A DNA stretch of 63,273 nucleotides from a virus. Below the pieces are notes generated by a model. The model made no database searches. It saw nothing but the letters and a program-made list of their open reading frames with translations, and had not been told where the DNA came from. The stretch lies in the IMG/VR virus record IMGVR_UViG_3300048583_000095, positions 1 through 63,273 of that record; one strand, 5' to 3'. How positions within the stretch are numbered: position 1 is the stretch's first letter; the number at the start of each line of letters is the position of its first letter. Shown here in pieces: positions 14,571 through 53,732 of this stretch. The translations under genes were made by a program, and so were the position numbers.

Positions 14571-14680
14571 CGTAGTGTGTTGATCCGTACATTGCAAGGC
14601 CACGCGACTAACCATCGCAACGGATCGACCGGCTCGGGTAGCTCCCGGGACCGGAAAAGGCTCCCGGTGGTTCGGGGGTA

Positions 14681-14746
14681 AACGTACTAGCTCAATGGCA
14701 GAGCACCCGGTGAGGGAGGTTCGGGGTTCGATTCCCCGGTACGTTA
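14681..14746 (+). pseudogene. tRNA-like remnant (66 nt) with a truncated anticodon arm
   Basis: Perfect acceptor AACGTAC/GTACGTT, D-arm GCTC-AATGGCA-GAGC and T-arm CGGGG-TTCGATT-CCCCG. Only 17 nt lie where 22-23 are needed, and no canonical anticodon loop forms. Confidence 0.5.
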
Positions 14747-14770
14747 CGAGGCGCGCAAGCGCCACACGAT

Positions 14771-50741: not shown

Positions 50742-51242
50742 TCAATCCTCCGTGTTCTCGTCGTGCGTGGCGCACGTCGGCTTGTCGATCTCCGTGCGCG
50801 CATAGCAGTCGTACGTCTGGCAGCACAGCACGGCCGTGCAGATGTGTGCGTACGCGCCGTATTCCTGCTCGAAGAGTGCTTCAGGCGCGTCGCCCCGGTC
50901 GACCGTGTTCCGCGCCGCCTGCGCGTCCTCCTGCGCCGAGCGGATCACAACGACGATCTGCACGGGCAGCTCGGGCAAGAACGGCACGATCTCGGCGGGC
51001 GCGTGGTGCGCCGGATCGCGGTAGCCGTGCTGATTCTCGAAGCGCTGCGCGCCGCCGAAGGCCCCGTTCCGGTTCTTGTACACGAACCGCTTGATAGGGG
51101 GCGCGCTCGGCGAGTCGCCCCGGTGCTGCACGCTCAGCTCGGCGCGGCCGTCGTCGTAGTTGATCAGCGTGTACTGAAACGCGGCGCTGAGCGCCTGCTG
51201 AATGTTGATCTGCTTCGGATGCAGGTTCCACACGAGTTGCAT
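50742..51242 (-). CDS. hypothetical protein with a Cys-rich C-terminus
   Basis: ORF trimmed to the ATG after CGACGAGAGGACAGACG motif; divergent from the Y-RNA/Ro60 operon. Confidence 0.7.
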   Translation of the reverse strand: MQLVWNLHPKQINIQQALSAAFQYTLINYDDGRAELSVQHRGDSPSAPPIKRFVYKNRNGAFGGAQRFENQHGYRDPAHHAPAEIVPFLPELPVQIVVVIRSAQEDAQAARNTVDRGDAPEALFEQEYGAYAHICTAVLCCQTYDCYARTEIDKPTCATHDENTED

Positions 51243-51345
51243 CGTCTGTCCTCTCGTCGGTTGTCGATGAGAAAATTTTATCACGGGCCGATCGAGTCCA
51301 CGGCACCGGCCTTGAGCTGCGGCGACGCCGAAGGCGGGTACCCGG

Positions 51346-51374
51346 TTGCGAGCCTTCGGACCCTCGTGTATATT
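51346..51374 (+). promoter_or_regulatory. near-consensus sigma-70/SigA-type promoter TTGCGA-17-TATATT with TG extension
   Basis: -35 at 51346-51351; TG at 51367-51368; -10 at 51369-51374; predicted start near 51381, where the first Y-RNA-like helix begins. Confidence 0.7.
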
Positions 51375-51381
51375 CGAATCA

Positions 51382-51500
51382 TGCACCGCTCGAAGTGCCG
51401 TGAATGGCTACTTCATTGGTTCGATTCCGATCGGTCCCCCTTACTTGGGACCGTGCCCGTTGGCGGGCATATCCGATCACACTTTGATTCGAGCGGCACA
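51382..51500 (+). ncRNA. Y RNA-like module 1 (YrlA-like, with tRNA-like domain)
   Basis: Closing helix CCGCTCGAA (51386-94) / TTCGAGCGG (51488-96) with CGAAGTG and GATTCG. T-arm ATTGG-TTCGATT-CCGAT. Closed acceptor-like hairpin CGGTCCC-8 nt-GGGACCG. D-arm CCCG-TTGG-CGGG. Confidence 0.6.
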
Positions 51501-51502
51501 AC

Positions 51503-51628
51503 TTCATCCCGAAGTGCAGCACGCGGTTACTTCCACTACCAATCTCAGTGGACGCGGCAAGCATCCGGTTCGGCCGGAAGTAGCTTCCGATCACGTCCGT
51601 TTCCGCAGGCGACGAGATTCGGGATGAT
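51503..51628 (+). ncRNA. Y RNA-like module 2 (no clear tRNA-like domain; YrlB-like)
   Basis: Closing helix TCATCCCGAA (51504-13) / TTCGGGATGA (51618-27) with the same CGAAGTG...GATTCG signature; internal hairpins. Confidence 0.45.
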
Positions 51629-51632
51629 CTAA

Positions 51633-51787
51633 GTTCATAGCTGTCCGAAGTGAAGAGTTCGGTTACTTCGAATCAGGATCGAGAGGTCGGAGGTTCGATT
51701 CCTCCCATCCCGAAGAGTCGGGATGTAGCTCAGTGGATAGAGCGCTAACATTTCCGCACTCGCCCGGATTCGGACAGCTCATAAGTT
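51633..51787 (+). ncRNA. Y RNA-like module 3 (YrlA-like, with tRNA-like domain)
   Basis: Helix AGCTGTCCGAA (51639-49) / TTCGGACAGCT (51769-79). Second helix GAGTTCGG/CCGCACTC. T-arm GGAGG-TTCGATT-CCTCC. Hairpin CATCCCG-AAGAGT-CGGGATG. TA + D-arm GCTC-AGTGGATA-GAGC. Confidence 0.65.
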
Positions 51788-51790
51788 TCA

Positions 51791-51887
51791 CATCTCCCGA
51801 TGTGACGCGCACGGATACTTCGGAAAAGGTTCTTTGCTAGAACGTGGTTCGAAACCACATGCCGAGCGCACTGTGAATCGGGAGGTC
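51791..51887 (+). ncRNA. Y RNA-like module 4 (variant CGATGTG/GAATCG; partial tRNA-like elements)
   Basis: Helix ATCTCCCGA (51792-800) / TCGGGAGGT (51878-86); internal GTTC-TTTGCTA-GAAC and T-arm-like GTGG-TTCGAAA-CCAC. Confidence 0.45.
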
Positions 51888-51894
51888 TCAACTG

Positions 51895-52043
51895 AAGAGC
51901 GACGCGCGAAGTGCAGAGAACGGTTCCTTCCGTCTGTTAAACGGCTGATCCGGGTTCGAGTCCCGGCCCTCGTCTAAACGCTTGGGTAGCTCAATTGGTA
52001 GAGCAGCAGTGTCCCGGTCTCGATCGGATTCGCGCGCCGCTTT
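51895..52043 (+). ncRNA. Y RNA-like module 5 (YrlA-like, with tRNA-like domain)
   Basis: Helix CGCGCGAA (51903-10) / TTCGCGCG (52029-36). T-arm CCGGG-TTCGAGT-CCCGG. Imperfect closed acceptor-like hairpin. TA + D-arm GCTC-AATTGGTA-GAGC. Confidence 0.55.
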
Positions 52044-52085
52044 CTTCGGGTGTAGTCCTCCCACCCCTGTAAACGAGAGGACATC

Positions 52086-53732
52086 ATGACGAAGTTCAAC
52101 AAGGTCGGAACCCGCACGGCGACGCAGTCGCCGATTTCGAGCGCCGTCAAGCCGCGTCTGAAGACGGGCGAAGGCGCACAGGGATTCAAGCGCGACGCGA
52201 AGGGCGAACTCTTCGTGCTCGCGGTCGGCCGCTTCTTCGGCGAGAAGACGTTTTACGAGACGCCCGACGCAGGCGCGAAGCGCTTCGTCGCGCTCGTGCG
52301 CGAGGTCGCCACGGCCGACCCCGCTTGGGTCGCTGAGTTCCTGAAGTGGCTCCGCAGTGAAGCCAACATCCGCACGTCGGCGATCGTCGGCGCAGTGGAG
52401 TACGCGCGCACCATGCAGGCACTCGCGCGTGACGGCGAGCTGCCGCTTCACGCGTCGCACACGGCGCGCGCCGTCGTCCGTTCGGTACTTCAGCGCGCCG
52501 ACGAGCCCGGCGAGATGATCGCGTACTGCCGCTCGCAGTACGGCCGCTCGATCCCGATCGCCGTGAAGCGCGGCATCGCCGACGCGATCTCGGGGCTGAA
52601 GACGGGCCGGAAGGCGCTGTACACGGAGTATTCGCTTCTCAAGTACGACACGCCGTCGCACGGCTACCGCTTCGGCGACGTCGTCGACACGGTGTGCCCG
52701 GCGACCACGCACCCCGACGTGCGCGACACGCCGACCGGCGATCTCTTCGAGTTCGCCATCGACCGTCGCCACGGCCGTGAGAGCATCGACCCCGAGCTGT
52801 TCCCGCTGCTCACGAAGAACTCGCAGTACCGTCGACTCGTCGGTTCGAACCCGAACCTACTCCTCGACGTCGAGAAGCTTCGCGCGGCCGGGCTCACGTG
52901 GGAAGACGCACTCTCGCTCGGGGGCGACAAGATCGACAAGCGGAAGCTGTGGGAAGCGCTCATCGACGCCGACGCGCTCGGCTACATGGCGTTGATTCGC
53001 AACCTTCGCGGCTTCGACGAAGCCGGAGTGTCGAAGGTGCACGCGCAGAAGGTCGCCGATATCATCGCCGACCCCGAGCGCGTGAAGTCCTCGCGACAGC
53101 TTCCGTACCGGTACCTGTCGGCGTACAAGGCCGCGCCGTCGCTCCGTTGGGGGCAGGCGCTCGAAGAAGCGCTTGACCTGTCAACAGCGAACGTACCGAA
53201 GCTGCGCGGGCGCACGCTCGTGCTCGTCGACACGTCGGCGTCGATGCAGACGCCGTTGTCGGACCGCTCTTCGGTGCACTACGTCGAAGCGGCGGCGCTC
53301 TTCGGCGTCGCGCTCGGGCGCAACGCCGCGAAGGTCAACCTGTACGGCTTCGCGACGGGCACGTTCCGGCACGAACTCGCTTACGGCGGGTCGGTGCTGC
53401 GGCAGACGAAGCAGCTCGTCGACCGTGTCGGCGAAGCCGGGCACGGAACCGACATCGCCGGAGCCGTGCGCGCCACGTACGCCGGGCACGACCGCGTCGT
53501 GATTCTGACGGACATGCAGACGGTCGGCGGAATCGGGTACTACGGCCGCAGTGTCACGGAATCCGTTCCCGCGAACGTCCCGCTGTACGCGTGGAACCTC
53601 ACGGGCTACGTGGCGTCGATGATGCCGACCGGATCGGGCAACCGGCACGAGTTCGGCGGGTTCTCGGATTCGGCGTTCAGCATCATGCAGACGCTCGAAG
53701 CCGGGCGCGACGGCCGGTGGCCGTGGCAGTGA
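52086..53732 (+). CDS. rsr: Ro60-related protein (TROVE domain + vWA domain), Rsr ortholog
   Basis: N-terminal TROVE-like pattern (GEGAQGFKRDAKGELFVLAVGRFFGEKTFYE). C-terminal vWA MIDAS LVLVDTSASM with later GHGTDI and VVILTDMQT. RBS GAGAGGA. Confidence 0.85.
   Translation: MTKFNKVGTRTATQSPISSAVKPRLKTGEGAQGFKRDAKGELFVLAVGRFFGEKTFYETPDAGAKRFVALVREVATADPAWVAEFLKWLRSEANIRTSAIVGAVEYARTMQALARDGELPLHASHTARAVVRSVLQRADEPGEMIAYCRSQYGRSIPIAVKRGIADAISGLKTGRKALYTEYSLLKYDTPSHGYRFGDVVDTVCPATTHPDVRDTPTGDLFEFAIDRRHGRESIDPELFPLLTKNSQYRRLVGSNPNLLLDVEKLRAAGLTWEDALSLGGDKIDKRKLWEALIDADALGYMALIRNLRGFDEAGVSKVHAQKVADIIADPERVKSSRQLPYRYLSAYKAAPSLRWGQALEEALDLSTANVPKLRGRTLVLVDTSASMQTPLSDRSSVHYVEAAALFGVALGRNAAKVNLYGFATGTFRHELAYGGSVLRQTKQLVDRVGEAGHGTDIAGAVRATYAGHDRVVILTDMQTVGGIGYYGRSVTESVPANVPLYAWNLTGYVASMMPTGSGNRHEFGGFSDSAFSIMQTLEAGRDGRWPWQ

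What the first reader, a model, noticed from the sequence alone, without database searches (positions are those of the whole stretch)
51415..52004. Circularly permuted tRNA-like domains inside Y-RNA-like modules 1, 3 and 5
Three modules contain the same ordered set of parts. First comes a canonical T-arm (ATTGG-TTCGATT-CCGAT at 51415; GGAGG-TTCGATT-CCTCC at 51689; CCGGG-TTCGAGT-CCCGG at 51950). Next is a 7-bp acceptor-like stem closed by a loop (CGGTCCC..GGGACCG; CATCCCG-AAGAGT-CGGGATG; imperfect in module 5). Then comes TA/TG and a D-arm (CCCG-TTGG-CGGG; GCTC-AGTGGATA-GAGC; GCTC-AATTGGTA-GAGC). This is tRNA order rotated so that the anticodon-stem position opens into the closing helix, which is what is described for YrlA-type tRNA mimics. 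A linear tRNA scanner could miss these or mis-call them as tRNA fragments.
Basis: partly seen in the sequence, partly recalled or inferred. Interest (0 to 1): 0.75.

Follow-up and report, generated by a model that had tools for sequence, protein, structure and literature searches.

The report
Phage YrlA-type tRNA-mimic Y RNA array

Summary
The T-arm, closed acceptor-like hairpin and D-arm are at the stated coordinates in modules 1, 3 and 5. They lie in an 843-nt non-coding stretch between a conserved sigma-70-like promoter (51346-51374) and a TROVE+vWA Ro60 gene (52086-53732).

**Support**
- A covariance model built only from distant loci (Ro identity 52% or less) ranks module 3 (64 bits) and module 5 (55 bits) first and second in the window. 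Module 1 scores 32 bits.
- Orthologous arrays in eight related viral contigs show compensatory changes in the T, acceptor and closing helices.
- The tRNA tertiary Levitt pair holds family-wide: G15:C48 in 90 cores and A15:U48 in 79 of 218. Module 3 is G:C and module 5 is A:U.
- All five modules share one Ro-binding-type stem grammar.

**Corrections**
- Module 1 is a divergent subtype, and its D-arm is better read as GCCC-GTTGGC-GGGC.
- Module 5's acceptor hairpin is imperfect in this phage, and its tRNA-like fold is 1.6 kcal/mol above the minimum-energy fold.

**Verdict**
This matches YrlA (Chen 2014; Wang 2018, "circularly permuted tRNAs with closed acceptor stems"), which is already reported in phages. 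It is a new member of a known kind.

**Side results**
- tRNA scanners miscall such modules, including two genes deposited as tRNA-Arg in GenBank.
- Module 5 keeps an anticodon-arm-like hairpin.

The parts
51346..51374 (+). Sigma-70-like promoter TTGCGA-17 nt-TATATT in front of module 1
   Evidence: It is the only promoter-like site in 51150-52150. Both hexamers lie in blocks that are invariant across five related arrays.
51382..51500 (+). Module 1, a divergent YrlA-like RNA. Closing helix CCGCUCGAA/UUCGAGCGG; helix 2 GUGAAUGG/CCGAUCAC; CUACUUC; T-arm 51415-51431; 7-bp closed acceptor-like hairpin 51432-51453; D-like arm GCCC-GUUGGC-GGGC 51455-51468.
   Evidence: Supported (32.4 bits). The subclass with a GCCC D-stem and YUACUUC abutting the T-stem recurs in actinomycete rsr loci.
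51501..51630 (+). Module 2, a Y RNA-like module with the same Ro-binding-type stem but no T/acceptor/D core (YrlB-like)
   Evidence: The stem grammar is shown. There is no R1 hit. The module is present in L002, L004 and L010 and absent in L001.
51637..51781 (+). Module 3, YrlA-type. T-arm 51689-51705; 7-bp closed acceptor-like hairpin 51706-51725; U8A9 51726-51727; D-arm 51728-51743; G15:C48 Levitt pair (G 51733, C 51688).
   Evidence: R1 gives 64.3 bits, rank 1 in the window. Rfam YrlA gives 33.8 bits. The minimum-energy fold contains the arms. Compensatory changes are seen in the T, acceptor and closing helices.
51789..51889 (+). Module 4, a Y RNA-like module without a tRNA-like core. Its closing helix uses CGAU/AUCG in place of CGAA/UUCG.
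   Evidence: Supported. The T-arm-like GUGGUUCGAAACCAC in this window is not conserved in relatives.
51898..52041 (+). Module 5, YrlA-type with an extra anticodon-arm-like hairpin. Hairpin CCGU-CUGUUAA-ACGG 51930-51944; 5-nt variable loop 51945-51949; T-arm 51950-51966; imperfect acceptor-like hairpin 51967-51986; U8A9 51987-51988; D-arm 51989-52004; A15:U48 (A 51994, U 51949).
   Evidence: R1 gives 54.9 bits, rank 2. Rfam YrlA gives 31.2 bits and Rfam tRNA gives 24.7 bits on 51902-51974. The consensus fold shows covariation.
52086..53732 (+). rsr, the phage Ro60 ortholog (TROVE + vWA), 45 nt downstream of module 5
   Evidence: Pfam TROVE matches at 1e-17. The protein is about 40% identical to 'Ro-like RNA binding protein' of Streptomyces and Gordonia phages. 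It matches PDB 9KOP/9L5Y, Thermus phage phiLo Ro60, at E 3e-30.

Best explanation
The 51.38-52.04 kb stretch is a co-transcribed array of five Y RNA genes. It is driven by the conserved promoter at 51346-51374 and runs into the phage's Ro60 (rsr) gene.

**Shared stem.** Each module has the same stem: helix 1 ending in CGAA/UUCG, an internal loop (GUGNN on the 5' side and NNNNNGA on the 3' side), an 8-position helix 2 with a central mismatch, then YUACUUC. This stem is inferred to be the docking site for the phage Ro60 ring.

**Effector domains.** Modules 3 and 5, and module 1 in a degenerate form, carry the YrlA effector domain. This is a tRNA body whose acceptor stem is closed by a loop and whose chain ends leave on the anticodon side. 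It folds into an L-shape held by the T-loop/D-loop and 15:48 interactions. Modules 2 and 4 are YrlB-like partners without this domain.

**Function (inferred).** The inference is by analogy with D. radiodurans, S. Typhimurium and Thermus phage phiLo. Once cut out of the primary transcript, the RNAs bind phage Ro60, gate its cavity, and tether it to host PNPase or to another factor that recognises the tRNA elbow. This would redirect structured-RNA decay or repair during infection. [quoted passage not shown]

**Shown versus inferred.** Shown here are the sequence anatomy, conservation, covariation, the Ro60 linkage and the family resemblance. Inferred are expression, processing, Ro binding and the effector.
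For: **Locus context**
- The window is a tailed phage, with terminase, portal, major head, tape measure and DNA polymerase genes and a 27-tRNA array plus one further tRNA on the minus strand.
- The downstream gene is a Ro60 ortholog.
- No plausible coding ORF lies in 51387-52085.

**Family match**
- Rfam YrlA is the top non-tRNA hit on M3 and M5 and on the orthologous positions in L001-L007.
- R1, trained on 110 cores from loci with Ro identity of 52% or less, scores M3 at 64.3, M5 at 54.9 and M1 at 32.4 bits.

**Covariation**
- RNAalifold on unselected MAFFT alignments of orthologs shows 18 of 35 pairs (M3) and 13 of 38 pairs (M5) with double-sided changes.

**Tertiary pair**
- Among 218 cores, 90 are G15:C48 and 79 are A15:U48, against 18 mixed purine/pyrimidine combinations (6 G:U and 12 A:C) and 31 other combinations. 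This feature was not part of the search descriptor.
- M3 and M5 obey the rule, and the L005 M3 ortholog switched both partners (read).

**Position**
- Cores occur at 0.95 per kb upstream of Ro genes on the Ro strand, against 0.006 and 0.003 per kb elsewhere in 159 loci.

**Five-module grammar**
- The signature CGAWGTG-N8-GG-NTNCTTC occurs exactly 5 times in the window, against 0 expected.
- In the stem alignment 90% of cells are paired and 14 of 20 pairs have double-sided changes. Slid registers give 22-40% pairing.

**Literature**
- PMC4201824 reports YrlA in 254 bacteria and 22 phages, the motifs, and RNase P cleavage plus CCA addition in M. smegmatis.
- bioRxiv 10.1101/312249 gives the crystal structure and the permuted-tRNA description.
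- PMC12135203 shows that phage phiLo Ro60 binds two phage Y RNA-like RNAs encoded upstream of its gene and forms a complex with host PNPase.
Against: - Both Rfam YrlA hits are far below the gathering score (33.8 and 31.2 against 69). However, all 13 actinomycete loci and both known phage loci tested also stay below it, with a maximum of 50.4.
- The literal 5' motif GNCGAAN0-1G is not matched at its first G in any of the five modules.
- M1 lacks A14/R15 and a Levitt pair. It scores lower with R1 than several tRNA-tRNA junctions.
- M5's acceptor hairpin has two mismatches, and its minimum-energy fold omits the T-arm.
- In the stem alignment the 3' strands were located by a complementarity search. 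Its pairing percentage is therefore inflated by construction.
- There are no expression, processing or binding data for this phage.
Confidence: 0.85

Rival explanations
1. The segments are decayed remnants of tandem tRNA genes: the 3' part of one tRNA followed by the 5' part of the next. They would have no present function of their own.
For: - R1 also hits tRNA-tRNA junctions in the phage's tRNA array at 28-52 bits, and the descriptor matches some of them.
- M5 keeps an anticodon-arm-like hairpin, a 5-nt variable loop and a T-arm, and Rfam tRNA scores 24.7 bits on 51902-51974.
- A dimeric-tRNA origin of YrlA has been proposed (Sim and Wolin 2018, as cited in bioRxiv 10.1101/312249).
Against: - The two acceptor strands pair with each other and change together across relatives. 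This is not expected of strands from two different, decaying tRNAs.
- The missing halves are replaced in all five modules by one conserved stem grammar.
- The array, its promoter and its position next to Ro are kept down to 44-52% Ro identity.
- The 15:48 tertiary pair is maintained.
- The array lies 33 kb away from the tRNA array.
Confidence: 0.04
2. The array is only a structured 5' leader of the rsr mRNA, for example autoregulatory Ro60 binding sites. It would not be a source of separate stable RNAs.
For: - There is one conserved promoter in front of module 1 and no terminator-like site between the modules and rsr.
- Only 45 nt separate module 5 from the start codon.
- A conserved hairpin, GUCCUC/GAGGAC, covers the rsr ribosome-binding site.
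Against: - In the characterised systems Y RNAs encoded next to rsr accumulate as discrete Ro-bound RNAs (PMC4201824, PMC12135203).
- An L-shaped tRNA mimic that keeps its tertiary pairs is not needed for a protein-binding leader.
- The same modules occur in variable number (1 to about 7) in front of Ro genes.
- The two readings do not exclude each other.
Confidence: 0.07
3. They are true circularly permuted tRNA genes that are processed into working tRNAs, or into a two-piece tmRNA-like RNA.
For: - The order of arms matches the permuted pre-tRNAs of some algae (discussed in bioRxiv 10.1101/312249).
- Rfam's cyanobacterial (permuted) tmRNA model touches 51689-51727 at 23 bits.
- M1 and M3 have 7-bp acceptor-like stems, and M5 has a canonical-looking anticodon loop, CUGUUAA.
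Against: - M1 and M3 have no anticodon loop at all.
- ARAGORN finds no tmRNA and no tRNA here.
- CCA is not enriched after the 3' acceptor strand: 9 observed against 4.7 expected in 218 cores.
- The 'anticodon' of the M5-type hairpin drifts freely among close relatives (GUU, UCU, AUU).
- According to the same preprint, the splicing-type endonuclease needed for permuted tRNA maturation has not been reported in bacteria.
- No tag reading frame was looked for beyond ARAGORN's scan.
Confidence: 0.02

Closest known systems
YrlA (Y RNA-like A; Rfam RF02553; Chen et al. 2014, Wang et al. 2018, PDB 6CU1)
   Same: - It is encoded next to rsr on the same strand.
- The 5' strand contains CGAA-G, followed by the YUAY motif.
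- The T-arm GGUUCGAnUCC, a closed acceptor-like hairpin, U8A9 and the D-arm GCUC-A(R)nnGGnA-GAGC are present.
- The 15:48 pair switches between G:C and A:U.
   Different: - Rfam scores are half the gathering score.
- The first G of GNCGAA is not kept.
- There are three tRNA-like modules plus two without the domain in one array, whereas each of the three species studied experimentally has one YrlA-type RNA plus one or a few others.
- The M5 type carries a canonical-looking anticodon arm where the 'V' stem-loop is drawn.
- The M1 type has a different D-arm (GCCC/GGGC) and no V or anticodon stem.
Mycobacterium smegmatis YrlA/YrlB (Chen et al. 2014)
   Same: - It is an actinobacterial locus with the Y RNAs 5' of rsr.
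- It has a 7-bp acceptor-like stem, as in M1 and M3.
- Its second Y RNA lacks the full tRNA-like domain.
   Different: [quoted passage not shown] The phage array has five modules.
Thermus phage phiLo Ro60 with Yrl1/Yrl2 (NAR 2025, PMC12135203)
   Same: - A phage-encoded Ro60 has Y RNA-like genes directly upstream.
- The CGAA motif is present.
- The Ro proteins are homologous (E 3e-30).
   Different: In the passages of that paper retrieved here, the phiLo RNAs are described as stem-bulge-stem Y RNAs with no mention of a tRNA-like domain. There are two modules there and five here. Binding to Ro60 and host PNPase was tested there and not here.
Deinococcus radiodurans Yrn1
   Same: It is a Ro-binding stem joined to an effector domain with a T-arm, encoded upstream of rsr among several small RNAs.
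   Different: According to Chen et al. 2014, in Yrn1 the order of T- and D-like arms relative to the 5' end differs, and the hairpin between them sits at the anticodon position.
Circularly permuted tRNA genes (Cyanidioschyzon merolae type)
   Same: The 3' half precedes the 5' half and the acceptor stem is initially closed by a loop.
   Different: Those are matured into working tRNAs through a circular intermediate. Here the ends run into a long Ro-binding stem, and two of the three modules have no anticodon loop.

Membership tests
YrlA-type Y RNA | Encoded within a few kb of a Ro60/TROVE gene and on the same strand | tested here: met
   The array ends 45 nt before the TROVE+vWA ORF at 52086-53732 on the + strand.
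YrlA-type Y RNA | 5' motif GNCGAAN0-1G (proposed Ro60 contact) | tested here: inconclusive
   CGAAG is present in M1, M2, M3 and M5. M4 has CGAUG with a compensating AUCG partner. The first G of the motif is absent in all five modules.
YrlA-type Y RNA | Conserved YUAY before the V/T region | tested here: met
   M1 has CUAC, M2 UUAC and M3 UUAC. M4 has AUAC. M5 has UUCC in this window but UUAC or AUAC in relatives.
YrlA-type Y RNA | T stem-loop, then a closed acceptor-like hairpin, then a D stem-loop, in that order | tested here: met
   The coordinates are confirmed. R1 gives 64.3, 54.9 and 32.4 bits. Covariation is seen in orthologs. The M5 hairpin is imperfect in this window.
YrlA-type Y RNA | Nearly invariant D-arm sequence (GCUC...GAGC with A14 and G18G19) and tRNA tertiary partners, including a covarying 15:48 pair | tested here: met
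   M3 has G15:C48 and M5 has A15:U48. M1 does not meet this feature: it has a GCCC D-stem and no A14/R15.
YrlA-type Y RNA | Score at or above Rfam RF02553 gathering score (69 bits) | tested here: not met
   The scores are 33.8 and 31.2 bits. This is an operational cut-off. None of the 15 actinomycete and phage rsr loci tested reaches it either, with a maximum of 50.4.
YrlA-type Y RNA | Bound by Ro60/Rsr; pseudouridine 55 and dihydrouridine made by TruB and DusA | not testable with these tools
   This needs immunoprecipitation and modification mapping.
Ordinary tRNA gene | Linear cloverleaf order (acceptor 5', D, anticodon, T, acceptor 3') detected by tRNA scanners | tested here: not met
   ARAGORN calls no tRNA in 51.3-52.1 kb. 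Rfam tRNA reaches only 24.7 bits against a gathering score of 29, on M5's 5' part.
Two-piece (permuted) tmRNA | tRNA-Ala-like acceptor with G3:U70 and a tag reading frame | tested here: not met
   ARAGORN finds no tmRNA. The acceptor-like stems have G3-C70 in M1 and M3. The cyano_tmRNA hit covers only the T-arm plus one hairpin, at 23 bits against a gathering score of 70.

The most novel reading that the evidence does not exclude
**Structural part.** In module 5 and about half of the actinomycete and phage YrlA cores, the hairpin drawn as the 'variable' stem-loop is a preserved anticodon arm. It has a 5-bp stem, a 7-nt loop with consensus C-U-N-N-U-A-A (the loop context of ANN-reading tRNAs that carry t6A37), and then a 4-5-nt variable loop into the T-stem. 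On this reading these Y RNAs are complete four-arm cloverleaves permuted at the D/anticodon junction, not in the anticodon loop.

**Functional part.** The phage may use them, tethered to Ro60, to present a tRNA body plus an anticodon loop to tRNA-directed host enzymes. Candidates are anticodon nucleases, the t6A machinery and repair ligases. The RNA would act as a decoy or an adapter.

**Support.** The structural part rests. The functional part is speculation. I could not check whether the two Wolin-lab reviews already describe the hairpin in this way.
Probability: 0.12. Interest if true: 0.65.

Novelty: new member of a known kind. Interest (0 to 1): 0.3.

Why it matters
- **New example of a known class.** It adds an uncultured, tRNA-rich actinophage lineage to the phages that carry their own Ro60/Y RNA system. 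It shows a compact five-module array with three distinct tRNA-mimic subtypes that is conserved across relatives.
- **Annotation.** Such modules are missed or miscalled by tRNA scanners. At least two deposited phage genomes (Gordonia phage VanLee gene 125 and Streptomyces phage GiJojo gene 29) list what looks like a YrlA module as a tRNA-Arg gene. Rfam's YrlA threshold also misses the whole actinomycete and actinophage clade tested here.
- **Limit.** It does not open a new kind of biology. The tRNA mimicry, the permuted topology and the presence in phages are all published.

Tried and rejected
- **Rfam at gathering thresholds.** It found only tRNAs.
- **Close relatives among deposited phages.** Megablast of 20 kb of the window found none. 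blastn of the array found only a 96-nt match in Xanthomonas/Xylella phages, which turned out to be their own YrlA cores.
- **Thermodynamic folding of M5.** It does not support the T-arm, so I used constrained folding and comparative folding.
- **RNAalifold on M1 orthologs.** It gave a weak consensus (-8.4 kcal/mol), because the acceptor and D regions are too divergent to align. Only the closing helices came out.
- **Encoded CCA ends in the acceptor loops.** They are not enriched (9 against 4.7 expected), so I make no claim that RNase P/CCA processing is general.
- **RNA ligase, PNPase or CCA-adding genes in the window.** None turned up among 34 ORFs scanned.
- **Unavailable sources.** The supplements of Chen 2014 and the two reviews (PMC6047535, PMC10870794) are not held. 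I could therefore not check whether multi-YrlA arrays or the anticodon-like V hairpin are already described.
- **Rejected readings.** The tmRNA and ordinary-tRNA readings are rejected.
Full report
**What is in the sequence**

- Module 1 (M1): T-arm 51415-51431, 7-bp hairpin 51432-51453, small D-like arm up to 51468.
- Module 3 (M3): T-arm 51689-51705, hairpin CATCCCG/CGGGATG 51706-51725, TA, and D-arm GCTC-AGTGGATA-GAGC 51728-51743.
- Module 5 (M5): T-arm 51950-51966, imperfect hairpin 51967-51986, TA, and D-arm 51989-52004.

The stretch 51243-52085 holds no ORF with the codon-position GC pattern of this genome's genes. It lies between a divergently oriented gene and a 548-aa ORF at 52086-53732. 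That ORF has a TROVE domain plus a weak vWA match. It is about 40% identical to the 'Ro-like RNA binding protein' of Streptomyces and Gordonia phages. It also matches the solved Ro60 of Thermus phage phiLo (9KOP/9L5Y, E 3e-30).

The window itself is a tailed phage. It has terminase, portal, major head, tape measure, DNA polymerase, primase and helicase genes. It carries 27 tRNA genes in one array at 14.5-18.6 kb, plus one tRNA-Ser on the minus strand at 58.1 kb. There is no near-identical genome among deposited phages.

**Is it more than chance?**

- The T-loop word GGTTCGANTCC is expected 0.31 times in a shuffled window. It occurs 25 times: 21 in the tRNA array region, 3 in these modules and 1 in an ORF.
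- A descriptor written for the claimed order (T-arm, hairpin of 6-8 bp, 1-3 nt, 4-bp D-arm) gives its two best window hits at M1 and M3. M5 fails it only because its hairpin has two mismatches.
- Minimum-energy folding of M1 and M3 forms all three hairpins inside a long closing helix, with z-scores of -4.3 and -3.1.
- For M5 the minimum-energy fold omits the T-arm (z -0.5). The tRNA-like fold is 1.6 kcal/mol less stable and the T-arm pair probability is about 0.3. Thermodynamics neither supports nor refutes M5.

**Comparative evidence**

The Ro protein retrieved eight related viral contigs at 92-41% identity. It later retrieved 80 viral loci and 80 Actinomycetota genome loci.

The whole upstream array is conserved in the closer relatives. 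This includes a promoter-like TTGCGA-17-TATATT whose hexamers sit in invariant blocks.

RNAalifold on plain MAFFT alignments of orthologs recovers the closing helix, T-arm, 7-bp acceptor-like hairpin and D-arm.
- M3 orthologs: 18 of 35 pairs show double-sided changes.
- M5 orthologs: 13 of 38 pairs show double-sided changes.
- The D-arm never varies, as reported for YrlA.

I built covariance model R1 from 110 cores taken only from loci whose Ro protein is 52% identical or less. With filters off it ranks M3 first (64.3 bits, E 3e-14) and M5 second (54.9 bits, E 6e-12) in the whole window. M1 gets 32.4 bits (E 2e-6). The same model also hits junctions between adjacent tRNA genes at 28-52 bits, so it cannot separate a YrlA core from a tRNA-tRNA junction. 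Context does that.

Two results are independent of how the cores were selected.
- **Position.** Cores occur at 0.95 per kb in the 1.5 kb upstream of Ro genes on the Ro strand. Elsewhere in the same 159 loci the rates are 0.006 and 0.003 per kb.
- **Tertiary pair.** The nucleotide before the T-stem (position 48) and the second D-loop nucleotide (position 15) follow the tRNA Levitt-pair rule. Among 218 distinct cores, 90 are G:C and 79 are A:U, against 6 G:U and 12 A:C.

In the window M3 is G15:C48 and M5 is A15:U48. In contig L005 the M3 ortholog has switched both partners to A:U (sequences). M1 has no such pair.

**All five modules share one stem**

The 5' signature CGAWGTG-N8-GG-NTNCTTC occurs five times in the window, all in the array, against 0 expected.

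Each module reads as follows:
- helix 1 ending in CGAA/UUCG (CGAU/AUCG in module 4, a compensated change);
- an internal loop with GUGNN on the 5' side and seven nucleotides ending in GA on the 3' side;
- an 8-position helix 2 with a central mismatch;
- YUACUUC.

On 20 distinct modules from six genomes this structure is 90% paired. Fourteen of 20 pairs carry double-sided changes, whereas registers slid by 1-3 columns give 22-40% pairing. The 3' strands were found by a complementarity search, which inflates the pairing figure. The fixed 7-nt spacing and the slid-register control are the informative parts.

Modules 2 and 4 have this stem but no T/acceptor/D core. They resemble the second, non-tRNA-like Y RNAs (YrlB) of Salmonella and M. 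smegmatis.

**What it is**

Every element matches the published description of YrlA.
- Chen et al. 2014 (PMC4201824) found YrlA near Ro60 genes in 254 bacteria and 22 phages. They defined the 5' GNCGAAN0-1G motif, the YUAY motif, the T, AS, D and optional V stem-loops, and the compensating 15:48 pair.
- The same paper showed that M. smegmatis YrlA, with a 7-bp acceptor-like stem, is cut by RNase P and receives CCA.
- Wang et al. 2018 (bioRxiv 10.1101/312249) solved the structure. [quoted passage not shown] They also cite a dimeric-tRNA origin model.
- A 2025 study (PMC12135203) showed that Thermus phage phiLo Ro60 binds two phage-encoded Y RNA-like RNAs lying upstream of its gene, and assembles with host PNPase.

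Rfam's YrlA model gives only 33.8 and 31.2 bits here against a gathering score of 69. However, none of 13 actinomycete genome loci or 2 known phage loci reaches that score either, with a maximum of 50.4. The cut-off, not the RNA, is the limiting factor for this clade.

The literal first G of GNCGAA is not kept in any module. I mark that feature as inconclusive.

**Differences worth recording**

- **M1 is a divergent subtype.** YUACUUC abuts the T-stem, the T-loop is UUCGAUU, and the D-arm is best read as GCCC-GUUGGC-GGGC. This is nearly identical to GCCC-GAUUGGC-GGGC of a recurrent class in Streptosporangiales rsr loci.
- **Several tRNA-like cores per locus are common.** In 160 loci the descriptor finds 0, 1, 2, 3 or 4 cores upstream of Ro in 23, 74, 40, 19 and 4 loci respectively. 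Xylella phage Usme has three. The triple arrangement is therefore not unusual in itself.
- **M5 carries a hairpin CCGU-CUGUUAA-ACGG five nucleotides before its T-stem.**
  - Its stem covaries among relatives: CCGU/ACGG, UCGC/GCGA and UCUC/GAGA.
  - Across 126 GCTC-class cores not selected for this hairpin, 90 show at least 4 of 5 pairs in the canonical tRNA anticodon-arm geometry, that is a 5-bp stem, a 7-nt loop and a 4-5-nt variable loop.
  - The loop consensus is C-U-N-N-U-A-A.
  - Chen et al. call this the V stem-loop. Its geometry is that of an anticodon arm, which fits the dimeric-tRNA origin model.
- **This hairpin explains the scanner errors.**
  - ARAGORN calls nothing in this array.
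  - In relatives it calls tRNA-Asn(att), tRNA-Pro(agg), tRNA-Arg(tct), tRNA-Arg(cct) and tRNA-Asn(gtt) on YrlA modules.
  - The GenBank records of Gordonia phage VanLee and Streptomyces phage GiJojo carry two of those calls as tRNA genes directly upstream of their Ro genes.

**How it most likely works**

Shown here are the anatomy, the conservation, the Ro linkage and the tRNA-like tertiary constraint. The rest is inferred from the characterised systems.

The array is probably transcribed from the promoter at 51346-51374, together with rsr or ahead of it, and cut into module-sized RNAs. Each RNA would dock on phage Ro60 through the shared stem. The tRNA-shaped domains of modules 1, 3 and 5 would either protect the RNA or recruit a factor that recognises the tRNA elbow. 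Host PNPase is the precedent.

Modules 1 and 3, with 7-bp stems, are candidate RNase P substrates. I found no RNA ligase, PNPase or CCA-adding enzyme among the 34 window ORFs scanned.

**Rivals**

- **Non-functional decayed tRNA dimers.** This is contradicted by the compensatory changes between the two acceptor strands, by the shared stem that replaces the missing tRNA halves, and by the maintained 15:48 pair.
- **A purely cis-acting rsr leader.** This cannot be excluded without RNA data and is compatible with the main reading. A conserved GUCCUC/GAGGAC hairpin over the rsr ribosome-binding site hints at translational control.
- **Genuine permuted tRNAs or a two-piece tmRNA.** This is unlikely. 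Two modules have no anticodon loop, the M5 'anticodon' drifts among close relatives, CCA is not enriched, and ARAGORN finds no tmRNA.

**Verdict**

The finding is a new member of a known kind. Interest is modest. The main practical value is for annotating phage and actinomycete genomes.

Noticed in passing
L169 1204-1275 (Gordonia phage VanLee, gene 125) and L170 1269-1343 (Streptomyces phage GiJojo, gene 29): Both are deposited as tRNA-Arg(tct) and tRNA-Arg(cct). Each overlaps a YrlA-type core (R1 63.9 and 58.1 bits) about 160-230 nt upstream of the phage's Ro gene. They look like miscalled Y RNA modules. ARAGORN makes similar calls in L005, L010 and L171.
   Followed up: partly
window 51930-51949 and 217 cores in L009-L168: The hairpin before the T-arm (the 'V' stem-loop of YrlA) has canonical anticodon-arm geometry: a 5-bp stem, a 7-nt loop and a 4-5-nt variable loop. 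Its loop consensus is C-U-N-N-U-A-A, the context of ANN-reading tRNAs. The 'anticodon' varies freely (GUU, UCU, AUU and others).
   Followed up: partly
window 14680-14750: A tRNA-like stretch lies between tRNA-Trp and tRNA-Met. It has acceptor AACGTAC/GTACGTT, D-arm GCTCAATGGCAGAGC and T-arm GGGGTTCGATTCCCC, but no paired anticodon stem. Neither ARAGORN nor Rfam calls it. It may be a pseudo-tRNA or an unusual tRNA.
   Followed up: no
window 52055-52082: A hairpin GUCCUC/GAGGAC covers the rsr Shine-Dalgarno sequence (GAGAGGA). Both arms are invariant in five related arrays and the hairpin is present in the minimum-energy fold, but z is only -1.5. It may be a translational control element.
   Followed up: partly
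window 51744-51761 versus L005 2425-2441: The 3' tail of the window's module 3 (GCUAACAUUUCCGCACUC) resembles the tail of module 5 in L005, not the tail of module 3 in the window's closer relatives. This suggests exchange between paralogous modules. As a consequence the window's M3 lacks the ACCGA/UCGGU anticodon-stem pairing seen in relatives.
   Followed up: no
L007 1780-2500: A more distant relative (44% Ro identity) has about seven consecutive modules with a different stem grammar (CCGACGCC ... GGTTACTTC ... ATCGCGGA). Only two of them carry T-arm cores.
   Followed up: no
L090 59-930 (Catelliglobosispora koreensis), L006, L008, L170: Ro/Y RNA loci often sit directly next to tRNA arrays, in phages and in at least one bacterial genome. 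This matches the remark in Wang et al. 2018 that Y RNAs are sometimes encoded beside tRNAs.
   Followed up: no
15 loci: Rfam RF02553 (YrlA), with a gathering score of 69 bits, detects none of the actinomycete or phage YrlA-type RNAs tested (best 50.4 bits). The family model appears to under-represent this clade.
   Followed up: partly
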